Assembly (NCBI GenBank): GCA_964387265.1
Contig: CAYLWC010000012.1
Location: forward strand, 2,737-66,736
DNA: 64,000 nucleotides
From: an uncultured Vampirovibrionales bacterium
GTDB taxonomy: Bacteria; Cyanobacteriota; Vampirovibrionia; Vampirovibrionales; Vampirovibrionaceae
Direction of reading: 5' to 3'
In this document: piece by piece, positions 24,248 to 39,597 of the stretch
How the letters are laid out: each line of letters opens with the position of its first letter
Numbering within the stretch: the stretch's first letter is position 1
Made by a program: the position numbers and the translations under genes
The notes under the pieces: generated by a model
What the model saw: only the letters and a program-made list of their open reading frames with translations
Databases searched by the model: none
What the model was told of the DNA's origin: nothing

Positions 24248-25543
24248 CTATCCCTCCTCTCTCCGGTAGGCCTCCGCCAAAATCTCAATGGGATGGCGCA
24301 CCGACATGAGAATCCCCAGTTGCTGGAGCCCATGGGCAATTTGCAACATGCACCCTGGGTTCCCAGTCACCACCGTCTCAGCACCGGTTTGCTCATAGAG
24401 ATTTTTCAGGTGCTCAATTTTTCCGGCCAAAATCTCCTGACTCAGAACCGGGTGCTCAATGTTATACACTCCCGCACTGCCGCAGCAGGCGTCAAATTCA
24501 GTCAGCGGTACCAGGGTCAGCCCTGGCACTTGGGCCAGCAAGCGAACGGGCTCCTCTTTGATTTTTTGCACATGGTACAGGTGACAGGCGGCATGATAGG
24601 TCAGGGTTTTTTTCAGGGGCTTTGCAAACGGCTTCAGCTTACGTTTGGCCAACAGTTCCATAACATCCACCACTTTGGCGGAAAACTCCCGGACCCGGTC
24701 CCGATACAGTTCGGCCAACAACTGCTCATACGCCTTCATCGTCGAGCCGCATCCAGCGGAGTTCACCACAATCCATTTGAGGTTATGATCCAACAACAGC
24801 TTCAGATTCTGAAGAGCCAGCTCACGGGTAATATCCGTCTCTCCAGCATGATGCCCCAAGGCGCCGCAGCAGGTTTGTTCAGGAATCGTGACAAAATACC
24901 CGTTGGCCACCAGCACCTCGATGGTATCCCAATGGACCGGGTTATAAAATACGTCCATGACGCAGCCGGTAAAAAGTGCGACTTTTTCCCCGGACGGATT
25001 CCCAAAGGTCATGCCCGCTTCCAACTTTTTGATCTCAGGGATTTCCGGTAACAGCGCTTCTCGAATCGCCATGCCAGGAAGCAATTTCAGGATGCCCGTC
25101 TTTCGAAGCACCCTTTGCAGACCGCTCTTTTGATAAAAGCGGAGCAAGGATCCCAGCCTCATCAGCAAAGAATGATTGGGCAGGATGTGTTTTAAGATCC
25201 AGCGTTTCACCCATCGTTGAAGCGATCGGTTTTCCTGGTTTAACGCCTCCCGGCTGGCAATCAACAATTCTCCATAATGCACCCCAGACGGACAGGCGGT
25301 TTCACAGGCATGACATGCTAAACAGGGATCCAGATGGCGGGAGAGTTGCTGAGGATCAGACAACTCCCCTTCCAGCATACTACGCATCAGATACAGACGC
25401 CCTCGGGGAGATTCCGCCTCTGACCCCGTCACACGGTATGTCGGACACGCTGATAAACACATGCCACAATGAATACAAGCTTTCAGCTTATCCAATTCCA
25501 GGTTTAAATTCATTTTTGGGGGGTGGGACATCTCATTATCCAT
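24248..25543 (-). CDS. glcF: Fe-S oxidoreductase, GlcF-like (glycolate oxidase iron-sulfur subunit family)
   Basis: N-terminal 2x[4Fe-4S] motifs (CIHCGMCLSACPTY… CLACHACETACP). Two CCG cysteine-rich domains. Confidence 0.7.
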   Translation of the reverse strand: MDNEMSHPPKMNLNLELDKLKACIHCGMCLSACPTYRVTGSEAESPRGRLYLMRSMLEGELSDPQQLSRHLDPCLACHACETACPSGVHYGELLIASREALNQENRSLQRWVKRWILKHILPNHSLLMRLGSLLRFYQKSGLQRVLRKTGILKLLPGMAIREALLPEIPEIKKLEAGMTFGNPSGEKVALFTGCVMDVFYNPVHWDTIEVLVANGYFVTIPEQTCCGALGHHAGETDITRELALQNLKLLLDHNLKWIVVNSAGCGSTMKAYEQLLAELYRDRVREFSAKVVDVMELLAKRKLKPFAKPLKKTLTYHAACHLYHVQKIKEEPVRLLAQVPGLTLVPLTEFDACCGSAGVYNIEHPVLSQEILAGKIEHLKNLYEQTGAETVVTGNPGCMLQIAHGLQQLGILMSVRHPIEILAEAYRREEG

Positions 25544-25546
25544 TTT

Positions 25547-26764
25547 TTATACCAGGGGGAGCATGCGACTGACCAGGATCTGTTGGGGATCATAGCTGAG
25601 TTTAATCCGGGACATCCACTGTCGAAGCACCCGATCAGAAGGCAAGTTATACAGACGCACCAGAGACTCGTATGGTTCCAGACATTTTAAAATCCGAAAT
25701 ACCGCACCCCAAGTAACAGCAGCCCTAGATAGTTCCTCCAGGGCCTTTTCTAAATCCGATGGCAGCGGCAAGTGTTCTATCCAAACCATCGTTATCAAGC
25801 TAGCCGCCGGTCGTATAAAAATCTGATCCGGTTGACACGGACTGGCCTCCATCTGTTCCAGCGCCGCATGCACTTTTCCGTCTGGCAACGCCATTTCGAT
25901 TATCAATGGCGCATTCCAACTAGCTTGCCACCGCTCAAATAACGTCTGTTCCTCATGTTTTTTCAAAGGTTGGGCCCCCACACTGCCTAGGTCCAGCCCA
26001 CCCAAGACGGATCCCGCCTCTTTCAACACCGACGCTTCCCCAGCCATCCGCAGATAAAGCTGAGCTGCAGCCCCCGAATCAGCATACACTTCGCATTGGG
26101 TCAACGGGAGCGCCTCGTTTAAAATCCGGGTGGCCGCATTCAGGGCTTTTTCTGGATAATCAAAGCCAAATACCCAACTCTTTCGCGCTGCCGCCTTCGC
26201 CTTGAGCTTTAAGACAACAGCGGTCATCACGCCCAACATGTGGTAACTGCCCACGTACAACTTATTAAAATCATACCCGGCCACGTTTTTGACCACTTGC
26301 CCACCGCTATGGGTAATCAGCCCATCAGGGGTAGCAATTTCCAAGCCCAGCACCCAGTCTCTGGGATAACCATACAAGCCAGCTTCCAACGCCAGGCACT
26401 CTTCCGCCAAAATATCGGATACGGTCCAATCCGGCGGGTAGCTGTGCGGAAAGACTTGCTGATGCTGGGCGGTGATTTTTTCCAGCGCACTAGCGGTGAT
26501 ACCCGTTTCCACATGGAGCGTCAGATCTTCTGCCCGATAAGACCGGACGGCGCACAGATCCGATAAGTCCAACCAAAACGGCGTTGCCATTTTTTGCGCT
26601 TCATACCACGATACGGCCATAGGAACCTGCCGGTCCGCAGCCTGCTTTAACAGCTGAGCGACTTGTTCAGCCGTTTGAGGCCGGGCACGCCAACCGTCTT
26701 TCCCGGTCAAGGTCATGGGCTCTACCGGAAAGTCCAGACTTGTCAAAGGACAGGCTAAATCCAT
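25547..26764 (-). CDS. glcE: FAD-binding PCMH-type oxidase subunit, GlcE-like
   Basis: Divergent FAD-binding domain. Sits between glcD-like and glcF-like genes with small overlaps. Confidence 0.55.
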   Translation of the reverse strand: MDLACPLTSLDFPVEPMTLTGKDGWRARPQTAEQVAQLLKQAADRQVPMAVSWYEAQKMATPFWLDLSDLCAVRSYRAEDLTLHVETGITASALEKITAQHQQVFPHSYPPDWTVSDILAEECLALEAGLYGYPRDWVLGLEIATPDGLITHSGGQVVKNVAGYDFNKLYVGSYHMLGVMTAVVLKLKAKAAARKSWVFGFDYPEKALNAATRILNEALPLTQCEVYADSGAAAQLYLRMAGEASVLKEAGSVLGGLDLGSVGAQPLKKHEEQTLFERWQASWNAPLIIEMALPDGKVHAALEQMEASPCQPDQIFIRPAASLITMVWIEHLPLPSDLEKALEELSRAAVTWGAVFRILKCLEPYESLVRLYNLPSDRVLRQWMSRIKLSYDPQQILVSRMLPLV

Positions 26765-28275
26765 AACCCCTCTCCTGCTTTCATGGTATGGGTTAATGCC
26801 GTATGGGTTTCCCCGCAGCCTTTTCGAATGGGGAAGATCTTGGCCGGGTTGGCCAGATTTTTAGGATCAAAGAGCGCCTTAAACCGCTTCATCCGTGTAA
26901 GATCATCTTCTGAAAAAATCCGGTCCATGAACGCCGATTTTTCAATCCCAATGCCATGTTCCCCGCTCAGTGTCCCGCCAACTTCCAGGCACACGTTCAG
27001 GATTTCATACCCACCCGCCAACACCCGTTGGACCATCTCCGCATCATCCGGGTCAAACAGAATATTGGGGTGCAGATTCCCATCACCCGCATGAAACACG
27101 TTACCAATGAGCATCCGGTATTCGGCCCCAATTTCATGAATCCGGCGCAGTACATAGGTCAGCTCGCTCCGGGGAATCACACAATCATGCAAATAAAACG
27201 CTGGCTGATATCGCCCATAAGCCGCCACAGCCCCTTTTCTAGCGGCCCAAAGGGCTTGACGCTCTTGCTCGGTCTCTCCTACCTGAACCTGGATCACTTC
27301 GTGCTGCTCCAAAATCTGTCGGAGCCGCTGTTCTACCTGATTCACCTGCCAGTGGGGCCCATCCAGCTCAATGAGCAAGACCGCCTCACATTGTTCTGGG
27401 AAACCCACCTGAAAGGCTTCATTCACGGCTTTTACGGTAAAGGCATCCATAAATTCCAGTGCCGAAGGGGTCAGCTCTGATTGAATCAGGGTTGCAACCG
27501 TATCTGTCGCTTGGGCCACTTGATCAAACGCGGCCAAAAAGACCCGGATAGTTTGAGGCACAGGGGTTAATCGCACAATTGCCTGGGTGACAATCCCCAA
27601 TGTCCCTTCGGATCCCACCATCACCCCCACTAGGTTTAAACCATGGGCACGCCGGGTTTTTGAACCCACCCAGACCACCGACCCATCCGGCAACACCACC
27701 TCTAGGGCCAGCACATGATCGGTGGTCACCCCGTACTTAATACAATGAATACCGCCTGCGTTCTCGGCAATATTCCCTCCAATAGTACAGGCCGATTGGC
27801 TGGAGGGATCCGGGGCGTAAAATAACCCATGGGGCGCAAGTTCCCGGTTAAGCCAGGCGTTTACCACCCCAGGCTCCACCATGGCCGTGCGGTTTTCAAT
27901 ATCCAGTTCCCGGATCCGGTTCATCCGACTCAAGCTGATGATCACACCGCCTTCAACCGGCAATGCCCCACCTGATAAACCCGTCCCTGCACCCCGTGCC
28001 ACAAAGGGGATCTGGTATTGATGACATAACTGGACTGTCAAAGCCACTTCTTCCGTGGTGGCTGGCAGCACCACCAGATCCGGTCTGGTTTTGATTAAGG
28101 TACAGGCATCGCACTCATAGACCAACAGCTCCTCAGGCTGATCCAGGACAAAGCGACGGCCCAACTTCTGCCGCAGGGGTTGAATCAACCGATCCACCGG
28201 GTATTTTGAACGCGCTTGTGACATCCGACCCGCCTTTTTATATTCGAACGCAAACTGCCTCCTCAGGCAGCTCAA
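26755..28275 (-). CDS. glcD: FAD-linked oxidase GlcD-like (glycolate / D-2-hydroxyacid dehydrogenase family)
   Basis: FAD-binding-4 domain (…VARGAGTGLSGGALP…) and C-terminal FAD-oxidase domain. The start may be the internal Met (MSQARSKY…). Confidence 0.75.
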   Translation of the reverse strand: MSCLRRQFAFEYKKAGRMSQARSKYPVDRLIQPLRQKLGRRFVLDQPEELLVYECDACTLIKTRPDLVVLPATTEEVALTVQLCHQYQIPFVARGAGTGLSGGALPVEGGVIISLSRMNRIRELDIENRTAMVEPGVVNAWLNRELAPHGLFYAPDPSSQSACTIGGNIAENAGGIHCIKYGVTTDHVLALEVVLPDGSVVWVGSKTRRAHGLNLVGVMVGSEGTLGIVTQAIVRLTPVPQTIRVFLAAFDQVAQATDTVATLIQSELTPSALEFMDAFTVKAVNEAFQVGFPEQCEAVLLIELDGPHWQVNQVEQRLRQILEQHEVIQVQVGETEQERQALWAARKGAVAAYGRYQPAFYLHDCVIPRSELTYVLRRIHEIGAEYRMLIGNVFHAGDGNLHPNILFDPDDAEMVQRVLAGGYEILNVCLEVGGTLSGEHGIGIEKSAFMDRIFSEDDLTRMKRFKALFDPKNLANPAKIFPIRKGCGETHTALTHTMKAGEGLWI

Positions 28276-31459: not shown

Positions 31460-32866
31460 ATGCAAGCTTTGACACGGGCATGGAATGCCATTTATAGCGA
31501 TCAACCCTACAGCGCAAGCAGAAACTTTTTGATCACCGCCATTTTCTGGCTCGTTTTTGGAACGACGATCGGCCTGGTAGCCGCCGCTCTGATGGCTTGG
31601 CCGGATCTGATTCACAACATTCCCCAGCTTTCATTTGGTCGCATCCGTCCCGTGCACATTAATGCGGTCTTGGTGGGCTGGCTGTCCATGGGGTATGTCG
31701 CTTGCATGTTCTATGTCGTACCGGTTCTGGTGGGGCGCAAAAGCCTGTGGAGTGAGAAACTGGGCAACCTGACCATGATTGCCTGGAACCTGGTGATGAT
31801 TATCGGCTTGACCAGTATTATGAATGGATACACCGAAGCTCGTGAGTACGCTGAATTAAACGGTCCGCTAGACTGGATGGTACTAGCCGCCTTACTCATG
31901 ACGGGGCTTAATGTCTATATGACTGCTTTAACCGGCCCGGAGAAAAAGTGGTACGTCAGCATCTGGTACATTTTGGGCGCGTTGTTCTGGTTCCCCATTG
32001 TCTATATGATTGGGAACCGGGCTTTTATTGCGTTTGATGGCCTGAATGACGCCATTGCCGGGTGGTTCTACGGACATAATATTTTAGGGATGTGGTTTAC
32101 CGTCGGTGGGGTCGGAATTCTCTATTACTTGCTTCCCAAGTTTTCCGGCAACCCGCTTTACAGCCATACTTTATCCATGATTGGCTTCTGGACCATTGCC
32201 ATGTTCTACGCCCCCACCGGAACCCACCACATTCTCCAGTCCCCGGTGCCAGAGTGGCTGAAGGCCATTGCTGTTATCTCCAGCGTTTTCCTGCTGGTGC
32301 CGGTCCTGACGGTTCTGGTGAACTTCTTTATGACCATGAAGGGTAAATGGCACCTCATGGCCGATCACTTGGCCCTGCGTTTTGCGGCTGCTTCTGGGTT
32401 GGCCTACTTGCTCACTTGTATGCAAGGGCCGTTTCAAGCCACCCGAGGGATTAACTGGTATCTGCACTTCAGCAACTGGGTGGTAGGCCACGCGCACTTG
32501 GCACTGCTAGCCACCTTTACCTTTATCGTGTTTTCCGCCAGTTACTATATCATCCCCAAAATTACGGGGCGAAAAATTTACAGCCGTCCGCTCACCATTT
32601 GGCACTTCTGGCTCAGCTTTATTGGCTGGATCTTGATGATGATTTCACTGACCATTGCCGGCTTGATTCAAGCGGCTGGCTGGCATTTCGCCTTGCCCGT
32701 GGATCAGTGGGCCATTGAGATGGAGCCCTACATGGTTGTCCGCTTCATTTCCGGCATCATGATTGTGGCAGGCCAAATACTGTATATGTTAAACATCTAC
32801 AAAACGGTTTTCTCCAAGGAGTATGAGCCCACACCGGCATCTCCCACGGGAATCGCCTACGTATAA
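31460..32866 (+). CDS. ccoN: Heme-copper oxidase C-family catalytic subunit (cbb3-type CcoN)
   Basis: About 12 TM helices. Conserved His ligands (…PVHINAV…, WFYGHNILG, TGTHHILQ, VVGHAHLAL). Followed directly by a CcoO-like gene. Confidence 0.8.
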   Translation: MQALTRAWNAIYSDQPYSASRNFLITAIFWLVFGTTIGLVAAALMAWPDLIHNIPQLSFGRIRPVHINAVLVGWLSMGYVACMFYVVPVLVGRKSLWSEKLGNLTMIAWNLVMIIGLTSIMNGYTEAREYAELNGPLDWMVLAALLMTGLNVYMTALTGPEKKWYVSIWYILGALFWFPIVYMIGNRAFIAFDGLNDAIAGWFYGHNILGMWFTVGGVGILYYLLPKFSGNPLYSHTLSMIGFWTIAMFYAPTGTHHILQSPVPEWLKAIAVISSVFLLVPVLTVLVNFFMTMKGKWHLMADHLALRFAAASGLAYLLTCMQGPFQATRGINWYLHFSNWVVGHAHLALLATFTFIVFSASYYIIPKITGRKIYSRPLTIWHFWLSFIGWILMMISLTIAGLIQAAGWHFALPVDQWAIEMEPYMVVRFISGIMIVAGQILYMLNIYKTVFSKEYEPTPASPTGIAYV

Positions 32867-32898: not shown

Positions 32899-33936
32899 AT
32901 GGAACAGAGACTCAATTATCTAATCGCCGGTTGCTTCGTCGCACTGATCTTTTTGACCATTATTTTTGTCACCGCAATTTTGCCAGCAACCACCTTTCAG
33001 CCAGAGCCCACCGAGGCGGCGTTTAATTACGACCTGCCGGAAAATGCCCTGGTTAAAAAAGGGCGGGATGTCTACCGCCGGGAAGGCTGTTTCTATTGCC
33101 ATACCCAGTTTACCCGATATCAGGACCGGGAAAGTGGCGAAATGGTCCAGGCCGGGGATTACGTGTATGAGACCCCTCACCTGCTGGGAAGCGAGCGGAC
33201 CGGGCCGGATCTTTCCAACATCGGTGGAAAATACCCGGATGAATGGCACTGGGCGCACCATATGAACCCGCGGAAAGTGAAGCCGGGTTCCATTATGCCC
33301 TCTTTCTCCTACCTGTCTGATGAGGACATGACCGCCTTGATTGCCTACCTCCAGACCTTGGGGGCCAAACGGGAAGAAGTGGCTCGCCGCGGCACCCCGT
33401 CTCAAGATCCCAATAGTAAACATAAATGGGAAGATCCCCCAGCCACCTGGCTTGAGGCACCTCAAGAAATGCAGGATGACTGGGTGCGAATTGCCGAAAA
33501 CATTGATGTCAACAACTCAGCAATGGCCAACTCGGGACGCGGCATCTTTATGCAAAACTGTGCCGTGTGTCACGGGGTGACCGGCCGGGGGAATGGTCCT
33601 GTCAGCAGCACCATGCTCAAAAAGCCTGCCAACCTGACTCGACCCTTCTATACCGCTTATAGCGATGCCATGTGGTTCTGGAGAATCAAGGAAGGGGTGG
33701 CTGGTACCCGGATGCCTCGATGGGGACGTTCCCTCAGTGAAGAGGACATGGCGTATCTCGTCGCCTTTGTGAAAACCTTGCCGGTAGACGGCTCGATCCC
33801 GGCAGGGGAAATCGAAGTCACCCACTTTGGTCAGCTGGATGATATGAAAGTGATGAGCGAGAACTACAAAGAAATCGAGGAGCTGGGCGTGCTCTTTAGA
33901 AAAAGTCCCTACCATTACGGAGGTGGCCGCGAATGA
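32899..33936 (+). CDS. ccoO: CcoO-like mono-heme cytochrome c subunit with an additional C-terminal mono-heme cytochrome c domain
   Basis: N-terminal TM helix. CcoO motifs (GCFYCHTQ; RTGPDLSNIGGKYPDEWHWAHHMNP). A second CXXCH (CAVCHGVTGRGNGP…MP) in a CcoP-like C-terminal domain. Confidence 0.75.
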   Translation: MEQRLNYLIAGCFVALIFLTIIFVTAILPATTFQPEPTEAAFNYDLPENALVKKGRDVYRREGCFYCHTQFTRYQDRESGEMVQAGDYVYETPHLLGSERTGPDLSNIGGKYPDEWHWAHHMNPRKVKPGSIMPSFSYLSDEDMTALIAYLQTLGAKREEVARRGTPSQDPNSKHKWEDPPATWLEAPQEMQDDWVRIAENIDVNNSAMANSGRGIFMQNCAVCHGVTGRGNGPVSSTMLKKPANLTRPFYTAYSDAMWFWRIKEGVAGTRMPRWGRSLSEEDMAYLVAFVKTLPVDGSIPAGEIEVTHFGQLDDMKVMSENYKEIEELGVLFRKSPYHYGGGRE

Positions 33937-34106
33937 TTTGTCCATCTTGTATTTCCGGTGGAATTGGCCCTGGATACATTGCAGCCTTTGCCATCTGCGC
34001 CCTCTTTTTTATCTCAGCCGCAGCTGTGATGTTCTGGGCTTCCAAGAGCGGGCGGCTTGAAGGGCTGGAAGAGTCCAAGTACAAAATGCTGCAGGATGAT
34101 GAATAA
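33933..34106 (+). CDS. ccoS: CcoS/FixS-like small membrane peptide (cbb3 oxidase maturation), 57 aa
   Basis: Not in the ORF track (shorter than 60 aa). ATG overlaps the ccoO stop (ATGA). One TM helix. Tail …FWASKSGRLEGLEESKYKMLQDDE resembles the FixS tail …LWSLRSGQYDDLDG…ILLDDDD. Extra N-terminal CPSC. Confidence 0.4.
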   Translation: MICPSCISGGIGPGYIAAFAICALFFISAAAVMFWASKSGRLEGLEESKYKMLQDDE

Positions 34107-34120
34107 GGAAGAGGGAAGCT

Positions 34121-34285
34121 ATGAGCGAACCGAATCAGACACCAGATATCCCAGAACGGGTTGAAATGAAAGATTATGAAGAATTTGAAATCGGGGAACA
34201 CAAAGTACCCTGGTTTTTGTGGGTCTTTTTTACTTTCATTGTTCTTTGGGCGTCTGTGTCCTGGATCAAGTTTTTCGGATATTAA
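34121..34285 (+). CDS. Small membrane peptide resembling the CcoP N-terminal anchor helix, 54 aa
   Basis: Not in the ORF track. …DYEEFEIGEHKVPWFLWVFFTFIVLW… resembles the CcoP N-terminal …EEYDNPLPRWWFLLF… segment. SD GGAAGAGGGAAGCTATG. Confidence 0.4.
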   Translation: MSEPNQTPDIPERVEMKDYEEFEIGEHKVPWFLWVFFTFIVLWASVSWIKFFGY

Positions 34286-34308
34286 GCAAAGAGGTTTGGA
34301 TCTTGCCG

Positions 34309-35358
34309 ATGAAGGGATTGTCACAACCATATAGAATACTGGGCCGCCTGGGGCTACCGTTACTGGCGCTCACCGTGCTGGCCACCGGTTGTATTCAGAA
34401 AGCGGACGTTCAGCAAACGGCCCCCGTTGCAGCTGAGCCAATCATTGACCAGAAGTTGGCCATGGATGATTTCCGCTTCCCCTCCAAGGACCCTTCATTA
34501 AAGCGCGGCAAGGAGCTTTTTGAAAGCAACTGTATGCAGTGCCACGCCAATAGTTACTGGCAGCAGCCCAAAGTTCAGCAAAACTTGGCCTATACCACCC
34601 CCATAGATCTATACCTCTTTTTAACCAAGGGAGAAGCACCAAAAACCCTCTTGGTCAATAACGAGCGACGGGAAGTTCTGCCCAAGGAACACGCCCAAAA
34701 CGGTAAGCTGCTTTCCTTCCGCAATAATATGAGTAGTGATGATCGCTGGGCTGTATTATTTTATGCCCGCTACCTGGCCGGAGCCGGTGATTTCCACTCT
34801 CTTCGCAACCGGGTTCCTGATGCGGACATCGGTGCCATTTTTGGAGGAAACTGCGCGGTTTGTCATGGGACGCGCGGGTTTGGCGATGGACCATTGCACC
34901 TGGGTAAAACCGGAAACCATGAAGTCAAAGATGGGGTGATTAAGCATAATATGCTGCCGCCGCCAGCCAACTTCAACGATTATCAACGGCTGCTCAACCG
35001 AACGGACGCCCAACTCTTCAAGTATATCTGCGAAGGGATTTATCCTTCTGCCATGCCGTCCTGGTACGGGAATGTCAGCCGCGATTATGAGACTGGCAAG
35101 ATCAATTTCGTTTTTGATAACGAAATGATCTGGAACCTGGTCCGCCATGTTCGTGGGTTTACCTATGAAAACGACTTGGACGTTGATCCTGACACGGCAC
35201 CCAAAGGATGGATTGACTTCCAAACCTGTCACTCGGTGCCCACCAACCAACCTTGGACAGAGTTGATGAAAAAACACAGCCCCCCGCGCACCCCGCCGGC
35301 CAAGCCTGAGCCGTCGCGTGAAGGTGGCAACGGTCAGCAAGGAGCACATCGCACATGA
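34309..35358 (+). CDS. ccoP: Di-heme cytochrome c lipoprotein (CcoP soluble-domain-like)
   Basis: Internal ATG. Signal peptide with lipobox LATGC. Two CXXCH motifs (CMQCHAN; CAVCHGTRGFGDGP). Confidence 0.7.
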   Translation: MKGLSQPYRILGRLGLPLLALTVLATGCIQKADVQQTAPVAAEPIIDQKLAMDDFRFPSKDPSLKRGKELFESNCMQCHANSYWQQPKVQQNLAYTTPIDLYLFLTKGEAPKTLLVNNERREVLPKEHAQNGKLLSFRNNMSSDDRWAVLFYARYLAGAGDFHSLRNRVPDADIGAIFGGNCAVCHGTRGFGDGPLHLGKTGNHEVKDGVIKHNMLPPPANFNDYQRLLNRTDAQLFKYICEGIYPSAMPSWYGNVSRDYETGKINFVFDNEMIWNLVRHVRGFTYENDLDVDPDTAPKGWIDFQTCHSVPTNQPWTELMKKHSPPRTPPAKPEPSREGGNGQQGAHRT

Positions 35359-36011
35359 TCAACCGACGGGACTTTTTAAAAATTATTGTCAGCATTCCGA
35401 TTCTTGGTGGGCTGGCCCTGTTTGTCTCGCCTCTTTTTCGATACCTCCGGCCTACCTCTGGCCCATTAACCAGCACCAAAATTGATACCTCTGCCGCTTC
35501 CCCCCTGGAGTGGGAAGGGGATGGTGGACTATTTTCCAAGCCCGACATGCCAGAAGGCGAAAGGGAAGTCAGCTTCGACCTGACCGAATTTCCCGCACCC
35601 TGGTCAGCCCATACCTTTACTTTTGGTCAAAGAAGCCGGGAATATACTTTTAGAAATTTTCAGACCACCCAGATTCCGGGTTATGTCGTACGTTTGCCGG
35701 AAGATAAAGACGGGAAACCGGATTTTATCGTGGTCAGCCGCATTTGCCCGCACATGGGGTGCGTGTTCAATTTCTTACCGGAAGCCCATGAAGCAGCCGC
35801 GTACAACTACCCGCAGGCCAAAAACCCCTTGTTCGCCTGTCCTTGTCACCTCAGCGTGTTTGATCCGCTCCAGGAACAGGATATCGGTACTGCCGTAATA
35901 CGCGGCAAAGTGGTCAGTGGTCCGGCGCCTCGTCCACCTCGGCAGTTTACCTGGGCCATTGAAGGCGCTAGATTAGTCATCAAAGAAGCTGAGACCGGAG
36001 GGATTTCCTAG
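35355..36011 (+). CDS. Rieske [2Fe-2S] iron-sulfur protein with Tat signal
   Basis: Twin-arginine RRDFLK plus TM anchor. Rieske boxes CPHMGC … CPCHLS. 4-nt overlap with the upstream gene. Confidence 0.8.
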   Translation: MINRRDFLKIIVSIPILGGLALFVSPLFRYLRPTSGPLTSTKIDTSAASPLEWEGDGGLFSKPDMPEGEREVSFDLTEFPAPWSAHTFTFGQRSREYTFRNFQTTQIPGYVVRLPEDKDGKPDFIVVSRICPHMGCVFNFLPEAHEAAAYNYPQAKNPLFACPCHLSVFDPLQEQDIGTAVIRGKVVSGPAPRPPRQFTWAIEGARLVIKEAETGGIS

Positions 36012-36013
36012 TT

Positions 36014-37465
36014 ATGGCACGTGCATCGTTTGCAGATCTACCGAGTCAAGCCTGGCAGCACGTCAAAGAGCGCATCAATAAAATTGACGTGTTTGATGAA
36101 ACCAAGGTCGACAAGCAAAAAGACTCACCGTGGTACCAATTGGGCAGCATGTACTACCTGTTTTGGGTCGTGGTCATGGCCACGGGTGGCATCCTGATTG
36201 CTTTGTACCTTCCCACTACGGCGCAAGCCTATGATTCGGTTGGCGGACTCTCTCACAATGCCTTGGGCTCCATCCTCCGCGGTCTCCATAAGTACGGGGG
36301 CGATGCCATGATCATTGCCGCCACCTTGCGGATTTACCGGATGTGGTTCTCAGCCGAATACAAAAATAAGGGTGAGTTAACGTTTATTATCGCCATCCTC
36401 TTGTTGGTGGTCGCCATGTACTCCGGGTTGACTGGGTATCTGTTGATTTGGAACCAACGGGCGTTTTGGGCAACCAAGGTCTTTGCCACCTTCCCCACCT
36501 ATCTGGATATCACACCCACCTTCTGGAACTGGCCGTGGGATTTTGAGAACTACAACCGTACCTGGTTAATCCCCAACATCATTGGGGCTGTTACCAAAGT
36601 GATTGGGAACCTGACGCACCAGGGGATGAGTACTTCGCAAATCCTGATGGGGGGCAGCTCTATTGGGCAAGCCACCATGACCCGGTTCTACTCTCTCCAC
36701 TTTGCCTTTTCGCTCATCATGCTGGTTGTTACTGAAATTTACTTCTACAAAAACCGCATGAAACGGATTAACCTGAACCGAGGCGCTGTCTTGACCCTGT
36801 TGGGCATGCTGCTGTTTACCGCCATTATCTTCCCGGCAGAATCCGGCACCCGCGCCAACCCGGAAGTCACTCCGCTACCGATCCTCTCAGACTGGTACTT
36901 CCTGGCGCTGTATCAGATGCTGAAATATATGGATCCCTACTGGGCCACCATCTGGACTGTGGGGATTCCTTTTGTCACCATTGGTCTTACCTTTGTGGAT
37001 TTTGGAAACGAAACCAGCCCGTGGCGGCGGCCCATCTTTACGATGATTGGAATTTTGGCCATCATTGAGTTTATTGTGTTCTCTCTCCTGATTATTGCCA
37101 ATGTGGCCAATATCGAAACGGATCCGCCTTACTGGTTTGCCCACATGATTCTCTTTATCGCCATCGGGCAATTCTGGCACTGGGGTCTGTATAAACAACG
37201 CTTGCCGATGACGGTCTGGGTGTTGTTTAACATGATTACCAGCACCTGGTATCTGATCTTCTGGCATGTGATGGTGGGAGATTATCTGGCCCGATGGATT
37301 GACGGCCTGATGACAGGTACTACCACCCTTGAGAACCCGGCCAACCTGTACTGGAGCCTCATCTGGTTTGTCTTCTCGTTGGTTCAGATGCTGGCAGCTG
37401 GTTTTCTCTTCTGGCAAGACCGCAAGGCCCAGGAAGAAAAACGGCTTGAAGGAGCTACCGCATGA
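36014..37465 (+). CDS. Cytochrome b (long form with fused subunit-IV-like C-terminal part; Qo-site PEWY-like SDWYFLALY)
   Basis: Helix-B motif RGLHKYGGDAMIIAATLRIYRMWF and helix-D motif RFYSLHFAF…, each retaining only the first His. The positions of the second His are Arg and Tyr/Phe. Confidence 0.75.
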   Translation: MARASFADLPSQAWQHVKERINKIDVFDETKVDKQKDSPWYQLGSMYYLFWVVVMATGGILIALYLPTTAQAYDSVGGLSHNALGSILRGLHKYGGDAMIIAATLRIYRMWFSAEYKNKGELTFIIAILLLVVAMYSGLTGYLLIWNQRAFWATKVFATFPTYLDITPTFWNWPWDFENYNRTWLIPNIIGAVTKVIGNLTHQGMSTSQILMGGSSIGQATMTRFYSLHFAFSLIMLVVTEIYFYKNRMKRINLNRGAVLTLLGMLLFTAIIFPAESGTRANPEVTPLPILSDWYFLALYQMLKYMDPYWATIWTVGIPFVTIGLTFVDFGNETSPWRRPIFTMIGILAIIEFIVFSLLIIANVANIETDPPYWFAHMILFIAIGQFWHWGLYKQRLPMTVWVLFNMITSTWYLIFWHVMVGDYLARWIDGLMTGTTTLENPANLYWSLIWFVFSLVQMLAAGFLFWQDRKAQEEKRLEGATA

Positions 37466-37770
37466 TGACCGCTTCCACCCCGAAAAAACAGCCCCTGCAC
37501 CCCATACTCTGGTGGGTGCTGTTTGGTGTGGCCACGTTTCAATTGTCCCTGTGCCTGCAATCGTCCAGAGCGTTTTTCCTGGATACCAACTGGGGGAATG
37601 GCTTGCATTTGCTGGGGATGATTGCCCTGCTGGGTCTGGTGATGGGTGTTTTGATGTATGACAGTTACGTCAAGGAAAAGCACCAAGGGAAAATCCAGCG
37701 GCCGATTCGCTTGTTTGAGTGGCTCTATCAGCGCCAATATTCCAATAAAGGAGGCATGCACGTACTATGA
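37462..37770 (+). CDS. Small membrane protein (2 TM), operon-internal
   Basis: Start overlaps the upstream stop. Two hydrophobic helices. Confidence 0.45.
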   Translation: MMTASTPKKQPLHPILWWVLFGVATFQLSLCLQSSRAFFLDTNWGNGLHLLGMIALLGLVMGVLMYDSYVKEKHQGKIQRPIRLFEWLYQRQYSNKGGMHVL

Positions 37771-38021
37771 AATTGAAGATGAAGGACATTCTGGCCATTC
37801 TTTTAGCCATTCTTGCCAGTGCCGGCATCTTTGGCATGCTGGTGGGCGAGGGCAGCATCGTACCCGCCTCAGATAATGGCGAAATGCTGGAAGGGCTGAA
37901 AATGTACCTGACCGGCTTTGGCTGGATTTGCTTATTGGTCGGGGCAGCCTATGTCCTGACGGGTTATCGGGATCGGGTGGAGACCGATTTGCTTCACCCC
38001 GATGAAGAAGAACAGTCGTAA
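37767..38021 (+). CDS. Small membrane protein (2 TM), operon-internal
   Basis: Start overlaps the upstream stop. Two hydrophobic helices and an acidic tail. Confidence 0.45.
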   Translation: MKLKMKDILAILLAILASAGIFGMLVGEGSIVPASDNGEMLEGLKMYLTGFGWICLLVGAAYVLTGYRDRVETDLLHPDEEEQS

Positions 38022-38036
38022 GGAAGGAGTCATCAG

Positions 38037-39176
38037 GTGTATACCGAACCCTTGCAACGCGCAACCCTCTGGTTAGAAAAAGGGCTGAATGCGATTTTTT
38101 CCCAAAAATACAACCCCTTTTACTACCACGGGGCCCTGCCCAATTACTTTATCTGGGTCCTGTTTCTCTCCGGGCTGCTCTTATTTGCCTACTACATCCC
38201 GACCCTGGAAAACGCCTATAACTCGGTGAGCTACATCACCCACTCCATCCCATTTGGCAACGCGTTCCGAACCATCCATCGCTATGCTGGTGATGGGATG
38301 ATGATCTTTGTGATGCTGCACCTGGCGCGGGTCTGGTTTACCGATCGTTACCGCGAATACCGGATTGTCCCCTGGATTACCGGGGTGATTCTCTTGATTC
38401 TGACCTTCCTGGTAGGGTTAACCGGATATTTGCTGATCTGGGATCAGGAAGCGGTGACGCTCACCAACTTGACCGTCAACTTCCTCAATCAATTGCCGCT
38501 CATCGGACCGCCCACGGCGGAGTTCTTGATTGCCGGAAAAATCATTACCGATTACTCTTTAACCCGGTTCCTCTTTTTGCATTTGGCCATTCCCCTGGCC
38601 CTGATGTTTTTCCTCTGGATGCATTACATTCGGATTACCCGACCGGTGACCAACCCGCCGTTGGCTCTGGTGGTTCTGTTAACTGGGGGGTTATTTACCA
38701 TTGCCGGGGCGTATCCGGTGGAACTGGGAGAAGCCCCCAGCTTAACCGCAGTCAGCTCTACCGTGGAACTGGATTTACTTTACGCCTGGCCCCAATACTT
38801 GGTACTGCAAGGTGTTTCGCCTAGTCTGGTCTGGCTGCTAGTGCTCTTGGTTCCGGTTGGTTTACTGGTGCTACCCTACCTGCAGAAAAAAGCCCTGCGA
38901 GGCCAGTACGCCAACGTCATCCGAGAAAACTGTACAGGTTGCTCCCTGTGCTATCATGATTGCCCTTATGAAGCCATTACCATGGTGGATCGAGGCAACG
39001 ATGGCACCCGGTTCAAGCGTCTGGCCGTGGTGGATCCAGGTCGGTGTTCCAACTGCGGACTCTGTGTTGGCGCATGTGCCTTTAAGGCCATTGAAATCCC
39101 CCGGTGTGAAACTCCGGATGTTCTATCAGAAATTGAGTTAGCTTTAAGCCAGTCTTCCAATAAGGCTTCAGTGTGA
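38037..39176 (+). CDS. Cytochrome b (b6-like, four-His di-heme) fused to a C-terminal 2x[4Fe-4S] ferredoxin domain
   Basis: GTG start. Helix B IHRYAGDGMMIFVMLHLARVWF (H-x13-H). Helix D LFLHLAIPLALMFFLWMHY (H-x13-H). C-terminus CTGCSLCYHDCP … CSNCGLCVGACA. Confidence 0.7.
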   Translation: MYTEPLQRATLWLEKGLNAIFSQKYNPFYYHGALPNYFIWVLFLSGLLLFAYYIPTLENAYNSVSYITHSIPFGNAFRTIHRYAGDGMMIFVMLHLARVWFTDRYREYRIVPWITGVILLILTFLVGLTGYLLIWDQEAVTLTNLTVNFLNQLPLIGPPTAEFLIAGKIITDYSLTRFLFLHLAIPLALMFFLWMHYIRITRPVTNPPLALVVLLTGGLFTIAGAYPVELGEAPSLTAVSSTVELDLLYAWPQYLVLQGVSPSLVWLLVLLVPVGLLVLPYLQKKALRGQYANVIRENCTGCSLCYHDCPYEAITMVDRGNDGTRFKRLAVVDPGRCSNCGLCVGACAFKAIEIPRCETPDVLSEIELALSQSSNKASV

Positions 39177-39189
39177 GGTTTTTGCAACA

Positions 39190-39597
39190 ATGACCAAAGA
39201 AACAAAAATGATTGGAATTGTCTGTGAACGGAGTACCGATCTCACCGATCGCCTGGATGAGAACGGCTATCTGAAAGACAACCCCGATGTCAAAGTCATC
39301 ACCGTGCCGTGTAGTGGGATGATCCAGCCGATTATGCTGGAAACCGCCCTGAAAAAAGGCGCTGATGGGGTTTTCACCTGTGGCTGCCGGATCGGAGATT
39401 GCCACTACCGGGAAGGGAATAAATTCCTTCGCGAGCGCCTCCTAGGCAAGCGGATGCCCAAGCTGAAGCCCAATGTGGATAAAAGTCGCATTCAAGCCTA
39501 CTGGCTCTCGGCGCTAGAATACGATAAATTTAAAGACATGGTGAATGAATTCCATGAAACCTGTCAAAAGAAAGAAACAACGGCTGAAAAGTCATAG
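39190..39597 (+). CDS. MvhD/FlpD-family protein (methyl-viologen-reducing hydrogenase delta-subunit-like [2Fe-2S] domain)
   Basis: Motif …VPCSGMIQPIMLETALKKGADGVFTCGCRIGDCHYREGN… matches the FlpD/MvhD Cys pattern. 135 aa. Lies 14 nt after the cyt b-ferredoxin gene. Confidence 0.55.
   Translation: MTKETKMIGIVCERSTDLTDRLDENGYLKDNPDVKVITVPCSGMIQPIMLETALKKGADGVFTCGCRIGDCHYREGNKFLRERLLGKRMPKLKPNVDKSRIQAYWLSALEYDKFKDMVNEFHETCQKKETTAEKS

What the first reader, a model, noticed from the sequence alone, without database searches (positions are those of the whole stretch)
32899..35358. Rearranged c-type subunits of the cbb3 oxidase, with a FixS/CcoS-like maturation peptide inside the structural operon
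CcoO (32899-33936) carries a second CXXCH domain at its C-terminus. That domain is normally one half of CcoP.

The canonical CcoP appears split. A 54-aa peptide (34121-34285) resembles the CcoP N-terminal membrane anchor that contacts CcoN. A separate di-heme domain (34309-35358) carries a lipoprotein signal (LATGC) instead of a TM anchor.

Between them, a 57-aa ORF (33933-34106) has a FixS/CcoS-like tail (…SKSGRLEGLEE…MLQDDE). CcoS is normally encoded in the separate ccoGHIS assembly cluster.

Neither mini-ORF is in the supplied ORF track.
Basis: partly seen in the sequence, partly recalled or inferred. Interest (0 to 1): 0.55.

Follow-up and report, generated by a model that had tools for sequence, protein, structure and literature searches.

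The report
cbb3 oxidase operon with two small genes
This is the joined cytochrome bc / cbb3 oxidase operon already described in non-photosynthetic relatives of cyanobacteria; its two overlooked mini-genes are real, one being a CcoS-type assembly factor with an added cysteine motif and the other an unnamed small membrane protein, but the idea that they are pieces of a split CcoP subunit is not supported.

Summary
All four ORFs sit at the stated coordinates. CcoO has a second CXXCH cytochrome c domain, and the di-heme protein has a lipobox cysteine.

Both mini-ORFs are real genes. They keep their order and reading frame in 78-79 of 80 related Vampirovibrionales and Obscuribacterales loci. Differences fall mainly at third codon positions, and both are tightly packed into a 10-11 gene operon.

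- The 57-aa protein is a FixS/CcoS homologue. All 31 family members tested hit PF03597, and NCBI already names relatives CcoS. It also carries an invariant N-terminal C-P-x-C plus a transmembrane Cys.
- The 54-aa protein shows no specific similarity to the CcoP N-terminal anchor. Its hhalign score equals the block-shuffled null. A profile search of 1.84 billion proteins found only proteins of 100 aa or less. It is an unannotated small-protein family that travels with this operon type.
- The di-heme lipoprotein sits directly upstream of Rieske and cytochrome b. It matches actinobacterial QcrC slightly better than CcoP. It is more likely the bc complex's c-type subunit or wire than half of CcoP.

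The complex III/IV operon of Melainabacteria is already published. What is new here is limited to the small proteins.

The parts
31460..32866 (+). ccoN, the catalytic subunit I of a C-family (cbb3) haem-copper oxidase
   Evidence: PF00115 at 6e-84 and TIGR00780 at 6e-82, below the equivalog cutoff. It aligns over its full length to P. stutzeri CcoN (3mk7_A, 8e-68). The conserved H...GHN...Y..G.HH...GH.H ligand motifs are all present in the alignment.
32899..33936 (+). ccoO fused to one extra C-terminal class-I cytochrome c domain (two CXXCH)
   Evidence: FixO at residues 14-144 and Cytochrome_CBB3 at 209-291. NF011054 'bifunctional subunit II/cytochrome c' gives 150 bits, below its cutoff of 447. 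PDB CcoO matches at 9e-27. Two CXXCH are present in all 80 related loci.
33933..34106 (+). 57-aa CcoS/FixS-family protein with an N-terminal C-P-x-C and a transmembrane Cys
   Evidence: PF03597 at E 1.4e-4 for the window sequence. All 31 family members hit it, best 5e-9. TIGR00847 hits 24 of 31 members. Public relatives are named CcoS. CPxC plus a further Cys occur in 79 of 79 homologues. The start overlaps the ccoO stop by 4 nt.
34121..34285 (+). 54-aa single-pass membrane protein of an unannotated family. It has an acidic N-terminal segment, a conserved Pro, a transmembrane helix and a C-terminal SWI(P/K)FFGY
   Evidence: It is conserved in 78 loci with a third-position substitution bias. 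Relatives are 'hypothetical' with no Pfam domain. There are 37 representatives, all 100 aa or less. It is always next to the CcoO-c, FixS and cytochrome c genes, also in distant lineages.
34309..35358 (+). di-haem class-I cytochrome c lipoprotein
   Evidence: Two cytochrome c domains. Two CXXCH and a lipobox Cys are conserved across the loci. The AF2 model has pLDDT 79. The best PDB matches are QcrC and cytochrome c6.
35355..36011 (+). Rieske iron-sulfur protein with an N-terminal twin-arginine-like start
   Evidence: PF00355 and TIGR01416 at 4e-10. It overlaps the di-haem gene by 4 nt.
36014..37465 (+). cytochrome b (b6 plus subunit IV parts in one chain)
   Evidence: PF00033 and PF00032. It is conserved in the related loci.
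37462..38021 (+). two small membrane ORFs (102 and 84 aa) that overlap their neighbours by 4 nt
   Evidence: Sequence conservation is weak, with hits in 8 and 1 loci. L088 has positional analogues.
38037..39176 (+). cytochrome b N-terminal domain fused to a 2x[4Fe-4S] ferredoxin domain
   Evidence: PF00033 and Fer4_7. It is conserved in 72 loci and in L088.
39190..39597 (+). FlpD/MvhD-like protein, the last conserved gene of the operon
   Evidence: PF02662 at 2e-25. It is conserved wherever the loci reach that far.

Best explanation
The region is the oxidase half of a conserved Vampirovibrionia (Melainabacteria) operon. The operon encodes a cytochrome bc-type complex and a cbb3-type oxidase together.

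The oxidase has CcoN and a CcoO whose C-terminus carries one extra cytochrome c domain. That domain takes over the electron-entry role that CcoP has elsewhere.

The 57-aa gene encodes a CcoS-family assembly factor. By analogy with Rhodobacter CcoS it sits N-out/C-in and helps load haem b3/CuB into CcoN. Its lineage-specific N-terminal C-P-x-C would then face the periplasm.

The 54-aa gene encodes a new, conserved single-pass small subunit of this oxidase or supercomplex. It may be a functional stand-in for the missing CcoP/CcoQ helices, but it is not demonstrably derived from CcoP.

The di-haem lipoprotein is most likely the c1/QcrC-equivalent of the bc complex. The inferred electron path is: quinol -> Rieske -> two c haems of the lipoprotein -> extra haem on CcoO -> CcoO haem -> haem b -> haem b3/CuB.

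Shown here: the genes, their domains, their conservation and their synteny. Inferred: topology, subunit contacts, the electron path and the assembly role.
For: - **Domain content:**
- **Synteny:** the order N, O-c, S, 54, di-haem, Rieske, cyt b holds in 80 Vampirovibrionales and Obscuribacterales loci. The whole operon also occurs in a distant lineage, L088.
- **Operon structure:** genes overlap or are 2-32 nt apart.
- **orf57 is FixS/CcoS:**. K/R residues lie only after the helix, which fits the N-out/C-in topology published for CcoS (PMC12648545).
- **orf54:** it is under purifying selection and always accompanies the CcoO-c fusion.
- **Di-haem protein:** the lipobox is conserved. It is the only c-type cytochrome adjacent to Rieske and cyt b. 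QcrC is the top PDB match at 2e-6 over a 59-aa stretch, and QcrC leads the Foldseek list.
- **No canonical CcoP nearby:** no FixP_N motif appears in six-frame translations of the window or the 80 loci.
- **Literature:** a complex III/IV combination in Melainabacteria is reported in PMC6349859.
Against: - No experimental data exist for any of these proteins.
- The window's own orf57 scores just under the Pfam cutoff (21.9 against 23.1 bits) and does not hit TIGR00847.
- The QcrC-versus-CcoP discrimination for the di-haem protein is weak. E-values are 2e-6 against 6e-6, and no Foldseek hit reaches E 0.001.
- The rest of the genome could not be searched, so a canonical ccoP/ccoQ or a second ccoS elsewhere is not excluded.
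- Nothing shows that orf54 binds the oxidase rather than the bc part.
Confidence: 0.6

Rival explanations
1. One reading: a canonical CcoP was broken up. One haem domain moved onto CcoO, the N-terminal anchor survives as the 54-aa peptide, and the remaining haem domains became a lipoprotein that still acts as CcoP.
For: - The gene order N, O, small, small, di-haem c mirrors ccoNOQP.
- The extra CcoO domain and both di-haem domains belong to PF13442.
- By eye, HYEEVxEY...PPP lines up with GHSxDGIEEYDNPLP of CcoP.
- The charge distribution of orf54 fits an N-in/C-out helix like the CcoP anchor (inference).
- Mono-haem CcoP variants are known in green sulfur bacteria (PMC10158934).
Against: - The hhalign score equals the block-shuffled null.
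- Pfam FixP_N hits 1 of 30 close and 0 of 10 distant members.
- No CcoP-length or fused relative appears among 1.84 billion representatives.
- The haem count does not add up. One domain on CcoO plus two on the lipoprotein makes three, against two in CcoP.
- The di-haem protein scores 29 bits on TIGR00782 against a cutoff of 180.
- CcoP is not among the top 50 fold matches.
Confidence: 0.12
2. The di-haem lipoprotein is neither a fixed bc subunit nor CcoP. It is a membrane-tethered shuttle, like cytochrome c4 or cy, that moves between the two complexes.
For: - A lipid anchor rather than a transmembrane helix.
- About 40 low-confidence residues follow the lipobox Cys in the AF2 model and could act as a flexible tether.
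- The individual domains resemble soluble cytochrome c6.
Against: The bc part then has no c1-type acceptor for the Rieske protein encoded in the operon. The gene overlaps the Rieske gene by 4 nt, which suggests stoichiometric co-production.
Confidence: 0.2
3. The 57-aa protein is a permanent CcoQ-like structural subunit that merely shares FixS-like sequence. It is not, or not only, a transient assembly factor.
For: - It occupies the ccoQ position, directly after ccoO and translationally coupled to it.
- 5 of 31 members also give weak FixQ hits, best E 0.021.
- CcoQ and CcoS share size and N-out/C-in topology (PMC12648545).
- No FixQ gene is present in the operon.
Against: FixS hits are far stronger and universal, 31 of 31 with a best E of 5e-9. 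TIGR00847 hits 24 of 31.
Confidence: 0.2
4. The two mini-ORFs are chance reading frames in intergenic DNA.
For: They are short, and the window's orf54 has no family hit.
Against: The frames are intact in 78-79 of 80 loci at down to about 35-45% identity. Substitutions show a third-position bias. There are hundreds of database homologues.
Confidence: 0.01

Closest known systems
CcoS/FixS, the cbb3 oxidase maturation protein (PF03597, TIGR00847)
   Same: It is a single-pass protein of about 55 aa with an N-terminal helix. It has the charged G-x-[FL]-[ED]-x-[LMI]-E...M-[LM]-x-D-[DE] tail and significant HMM matches across the family.
   Different: It has an invariant N-terminal C-P-x-C and a Cys in the helix. 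Canonical CcoS is described as having no characteristic motifs (PMC8267372). It is encoded between ccoO and the next subunit gene, and no ccoG, ccoH or ccoI was found among the window ORFs scanned.
Canonical ccoNOQP cbb3 oxidase (P. stutzeri 3MK7, R. capsulatus 6XKW)
   Same: CcoN has all the ligand motifs, and the CcoO haem domain is present. Small genes lie between ccoO and a di-haem cytochrome gene.
   Different: There is no FixP_N-anchored CcoP and no FixQ. CcoO carries an extra haem domain. The di-haem protein is a lipoprotein.
NCBIfam NF011054, 'putative bifunctional cbb3-type cytochrome c oxidase subunit II/cytochrome c'
   Same: The same CcoO plus cytochrome c fusion architecture. It is the best NCBIfam hit, at 1e-43.
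   Different: The score of 150 bits is far below the equivalog cutoff of 447. This is a different lineage of the same kind of fusion.
Actinobacterial qcrCAB bcc complex with di-haem QcrC, in the CIII2CIV2 supercomplex (6HWH, 6ADQ)
   Same: The gene order is di-haem c, Rieske, cyt b. A di-haem c could wire the bc complex directly to the oxidase. It is the best PDB sequence and fold match.
   Different: The partner oxidase is cbb3 rather than aa3. The anchor is an N-terminal lipid, not a transmembrane helix. NF050122 gives 26 bits against a cutoff of 200.
Melainabacterial 'complex III/IV fusion' operon (Soo et al. 2017, not held in the library; Matheus Carnevali et al. 2019, PMC6349859)
   Same: The same operon type in the same class of bacteria.
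   Different: In the text and supplements I could read, those papers list ccoN, ccoO, petB and petC and mention a gene fusion. They do not mention the CcoS homologue, the 54-aa family or the lipoprotein.

Membership tests
CcoS/FixS (PF03597, TIGR00847) | Significant match to the family HMM | tested here: met
   For PF03597 the window sequence gives E 1.4e-4 and 21.9 bits (cutoff 23.1), and all 31 of 31 family members hit, best 5.1e-9. TIGR00847 hits 24 of 31 members but not the window sequence. Database relatives carry PF03597 and the NCBI name CcoS.
CcoS/FixS (PF03597, TIGR00847) | Single-pass membrane protein of about 50-60 aa, N-out/C-in, with a functionally essential acidic cytosolic tail (D33 in R. 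capsulatus) | tested here: inconclusive
   The size, the single hydrophobic helix, K/R only after the helix and the conserved acidic tail are visible in the alignment. Topology and the equivalence to D33 are inferred from PMC12648545 and were not measured.
CcoS/FixS (PF03597, TIGR00847) | [quoted passage not shown] | not testable with these tools
   This needs a deletion mutant and cofactor analysis.
CcoP (TIGR00782: FixP_N anchor plus two PF13442 haem domains) | FixP_N N-terminal anchor motif (GH..DGI.E.DN.LP.WW), tested on the 54-aa ORF | tested here: not met
   Pfam FixP_N hits 1 of 30 members at E 0.069 and 0 of 10 distant members. There is no CcoP hit in the PDB or among 1.84 billion representatives. 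hhalign scores 12.8, equal to the block-shuffled null (mean 12.9, sd 3.0). No motif was found in six-frame translations.
CcoP (TIGR00782: FixP_N anchor plus two PF13442 haem domains) | Two class-I haem c domains on one transmembrane-anchored chain that reaches the equivalog score | tested here: not met
   The di-haem protein has two CXXCH domains. However, it scores 29.3 bits on TIGR00782 against a cutoff of 179.95. It has a lipobox instead of a helix. CcoP is absent from the Foldseek top 50.
CcoO/FixO (PF02433, TIGR00781) | N-terminal helix plus a mono-haem domain matching FixO | tested here: met
   PF02433 gives 124 bits against a cutoff of 29.6, over residues 14-144. PDB CcoO matches at 9e-27. 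TIGR00781 gives 112 bits, below its 200.65 cutoff, because the C-terminal third is replaced.
CcoQ/FixQ (PF05545) | Match to the FixQ HMM by either mini-ORF | tested here: not met
   For orf57, 5 of 31 members hit, best E 0.021. For orf54, 1 of 30 hit, at E 2.
Di-haem QcrC of bcc complexes (NF050122) | Equivalog-level HMM match and a C-terminal transmembrane anchor | tested here: not met
   NF050122 gives 25.9 bits against a cutoff of 200. The anchor is an N-terminal lipobox. What is shared is the resemblance in gene order and being the top PDB hit.
C-family haem-copper oxidase subunit I (CcoN) | [quoted passage not shown] | tested here: met
   The full-length alignment to 3mk7_A shows HxNAV, GHN, Y...G.HH and GH.H all conserved.

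The most novel reading that the evidence does not exclude
The operon may encode an obligate bc-cbb3 supercomplex. A lipid-anchored di-haem cytochrome would be the only wire between the two enzymes. The unnamed 54-aa protein would fill the groove on CcoN that the CcoP anchor occupies elsewhere. The in-operon CcoS would have gained a periplasmic C-P-x-C (plus a membrane Cys) that handles Cu(I) or thiol redox during CuB insertion. That motif would give a first chemical handle on how CcoS works.
Probability: 0.2. Interest if true: 0.6.

Novelty: new variant of a known kind. Interest (0 to 1): 0.38.

Why it matters
The mechanism of CcoS is still unclear. A natural variant with an invariant CPxC on the side predicted to face the periplasm suggests a testable link to copper or thiol chemistry.

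The 54-aa family is conserved and unannotated. It always travels with CcoP-less, CcoO-cytochrome c fusion oxidases, so it is a candidate new subunit.

The result also corrects how this operon should be read. The di-haem cytochrome is better seen as part of the bc side. That bears on how aerobic respiration was assembled in the sister lineages of cyanobacteria. None of this overturns current understanding.

Tried and rejected
- **orf54 against CcoP.** Tested by Pfam scans of close and distant members, a profile search of the PDB, a profile search of 1.84 billion representatives, and hhalign against five real CcoP N-termini taken from PDB chains, with a block-shuffle null. All were negative. The by-eye alignment is no better than chance for an 'acidic segment plus helix' architecture.
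- **Fused relative.** I looked for an orf54-cytochrome fusion as evidence for a split. None was found; every hit is 100 aa or less.
- **Fold of the di-haem protein.** An AF2 model plus Foldseek could not clearly separate QcrC, cytochrome c6 and CcoP.
- **Assembly genes in the window.** I looked for ccoG, ccoH, ccoI and Sco-like genes. None were among the 20 larger ORFs scanned, but about 30 window ORFs were not scanned.
- **Source records.** An exact look-up of CcoO and of P0277 in the contig index found nothing.
- **Literature.** Soo et al. 2017 (Science) is not held in the library.
- **Chance ORFs.** This reading is rejected on the conservation data.
Full report
**What is in the sequence**

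The window carries a tightly packed run of plus-strand genes:
- ccoN, 31460-32866
- ccoO with an extra cytochrome c domain, 32899-33936
- a 57-aa ORF, 33933-34106
- a 54-aa ORF, 34121-34285
- a di-haem cytochrome c, 34309-35358
- Rieske, 35355-36011
- cytochrome b, 36014-37465
- two small ORFs, 37462-38021
- a cytochrome b-N/ferredoxin fusion, 38037-39176
- a FlpD/MvhD-like gene, 39190-39597

Neighbouring genes overlap by 4 nt or are 2-32 nt apart.

CcoN aligns over its full length to the P. stutzeri enzyme, at 8e-68. The haem and copper histidines and the helix-VII tyrosine are all present.

**Where it comes from**

A scan of one genome per species with the CcoO fusion returned 80 loci. Nearly all are labelled Vampirovibrionales (59-71% identity) or Obscuribacterales/Melainabacteria (44-54%). 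The exact proteins of the window are in the public collection, from an unnamed NCBI contig of 78.5 kb. The window is therefore from a Vampirovibrionales-like member of the non-photosynthetic sister class of cyanobacteria.

**Are the mini-ORFs real?**

Yes.
- tblastn finds both, in the same order between ccoO and the di-haem gene, in 79 and 78 of 80 loci. The exceptions are loci that end too early.
- Every copy is an intact ORF, usually with a Shine-Dalgarno-like stretch upstream.
- Pairwise differences fall mainly at third codon positions: 30190/22551/70088 for orf57 and 24456/14544/52385 for orf54.
- Database searches give 421 relatives for the orf57 profile (E up to 0.01) and 367 for the orf54 profile (E up to 1).
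- By contrast, the two small ORFs after cytochrome b are barely conserved in sequence.

**The 57-aa protein**

All 31 aligned family members hit Pfam FixS, best 5e-9. The window sequence scores 21.9 bits, just under the 23.1-bit cutoff. TIGR00847 (ccoS) hits 24 of 31 members. Public relatives already carry PF03597 and, in NCBI records, the name 'cbb3-type cytochrome oxidase assembly protein CcoS'. FixQ hits are few and weak. The FixS/CcoS assignment is therefore supported and is not new.

What differs from the canonical protein is an invariant N-terminal C-P-x-C plus a Cys inside the helix. These occur in 79 of 79 homologues.
- A distant lineage has C-S-A-C plus a helix Cys (L090).
- Another has FCIFC in the helix.
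- Others have no Cys at all, and L088 has two tandem FixS paralogues.

Canonical CcoS is described as lacking any characteristic motif (PMC8267372). R. capsulatus CcoS is N-out/C-in, has an essential cytosolic tail, and interacts with CcoN, CcoP and the copper chaperone SenC (PMC12648545). If that topology holds here, the CPxC faces the periplasm. The fact that K/R residues lie only after the helix fits this. The topology is an inference.

**The 54-aa protein**

Its relatives are all 'hypothetical' with no Pfam domain. The family signature is an acidic N-terminal segment, (V/I)-G, a conserved Pro, one helix, and a C-terminal SWIP..G(Y/F).

I tested the proposed likeness to the CcoP anchor in five ways:
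- Pfam FixP_N hit 1 of 30 members at E 0.069, and 0 of 10 distant members.
- The family profile found no CcoP chain in the PDB.
- A full HMMER search of 1.84 billion representatives gave 37 hits, all 100 aa or less. None was a CcoP and none was a fusion to a cytochrome.
- hhalign against five genuine CcoP N-termini taken from PDB chains gave score 12.8 and P 0.07.
- A null made by shuffling columns within the hydrophilic and helix blocks gave mean 12.9 and sd 3.0, with 46% of shuffles at or above the real score.

The resemblance is therefore one of general build only.

The family is nevertheless tied to this oxidase type. In distant lineages it again lies after a CcoO-cytochrome c fusion, with or without FixS in between, and before a c-type cytochrome. 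I conclude it is a conserved small subunit or assembly partner of unknown exact role. It may replace the missing CcoP/CcoQ helices functionally, but homology to CcoP is not shown.

**The c-type subunits**

The CcoO fusion is real and universal in this group. All 80 loci have two CXXCH. The added domain is in PF13442 and matches the C-terminal haem domain of the ccoP model at 1.6e-12. Its closest solved relative, however, is an anammox cytochrome, with CcoP further down the list. NCBIfam already has a model for a 'bifunctional subunit II/cytochrome c', so this kind of fusion is known.

The di-haem protein has a conserved lipobox Cys and two CXXCH in nearly every locus. It fails the ccoP equivalog badly, at 29 against 180 bits.
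- As a single sequence, its best PDB matches are actinobacterial QcrC (0.002), with CcoP at 0.09-1.
- As a family profile, QcrC leads at 2e-6 over 59 residues. CcoP follows at 6e-6 over only the 25-residue haem motif.
- An AF2 model (pLDDT 79) searched with Foldseek gave QcrC and cytochrome c6 hits. No hit reached E 0.001, and no CcoP was in the top 50.

The gene overlaps the Rieske gene and precedes cytochrome b, as in qcrCAB. No other c-type acceptor for the Rieske protein is encoded in the operon. I therefore read it as the bc complex's c1/QcrC-equivalent, or at least the wire between the two enzymes. My confidence in that is moderate, because the sequence discrimination is weak.

The haem count also argues against a simple split of CcoP. 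There are three extra c domains here, and CcoP has two.

**Context and prior knowledge**

A complex III/IV combination in aerobic Melainabacteria has been reported. PMC6349859 notes oxidase genes next to petB/petC, a partial gene fusion, and 'only two genes (ccoN and ccoO)' in one genome. It cites Soo et al. 2017, which I could not read. Earlier genome papers mention only a cbb3 oxidase. I found no mention of the CcoS homologue, the 54-aa family or the lipoprotein in the texts and supplements available to me.

Having ccoS in one operon with the structural genes also occurs in green sulfur bacteria, which in addition have a mono-haem CcoP (PMC10158934). No ccoG, ccoH or ccoI was found among the 20 larger window ORFs I scanned. 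The rest of the genome is out of reach.

**Verdict**

The finding is a variant of a known and already published operon. Two modestly new details emerge: a CPxC-bearing CcoS and an unannotated, conserved 50-60 aa membrane protein family.

Noticed in passing
window 38037-39597: A cytochrome b N-terminal (b6-like) domain is fused to a 2x[4Fe-4S] ferredoxin domain and followed by a FlpD/MvhD-like gene. The pair is conserved at the end of the operon: the fusion in 72 of 80 loci, FlpD wherever the loci reach that far, and both in distant L088. Its role next to a bc-cbb3 system is unexplained.
   Followed up: partly
L088 5533-5981: A distant lineage with the same operon has two tandem FixS paralogues without cysteines. 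One has an N-terminal signal-like extension. L081 has a similar 101-aa form.
   Followed up: partly
window 37462-38021: Two small membrane ORFs (102 and 84 aa) overlap their neighbours by 4 nt after cytochrome b. They are weakly conserved in sequence (8 and 1 loci), but L088 has positional analogues of 91 and 71 aa.
   Followed up: partly
L090 61-258 and L085 2933-3133: FixS-like proteins of other lineages carry different cysteine patterns. L090 has an N-terminal C-S-A-C plus a helix Cys. L085 has F-C-I-F-C inside the helix. Cysteines seem to have been gained more than once, or placed differently.
   Followed up: no
window 24248-28275, minus strand: Upstream of the operon lies a three-gene cluster: two FAD-binding proteins and a CCG/4Fe-4S protein. 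It looks like a GlcDEF-type glycolate/lactate oxidase and is probably unrelated to the finding.
   Followed up: no
locus titles (L015, L022, L023, L025, L028): Several loci with this Melainabacteria-type operon come from bins labelled Bryobacterales, Actinobacteria, Proteobacteria or Chloroflexota. These are probably mis-binned contigs rather than transfers.
   Followed up: no
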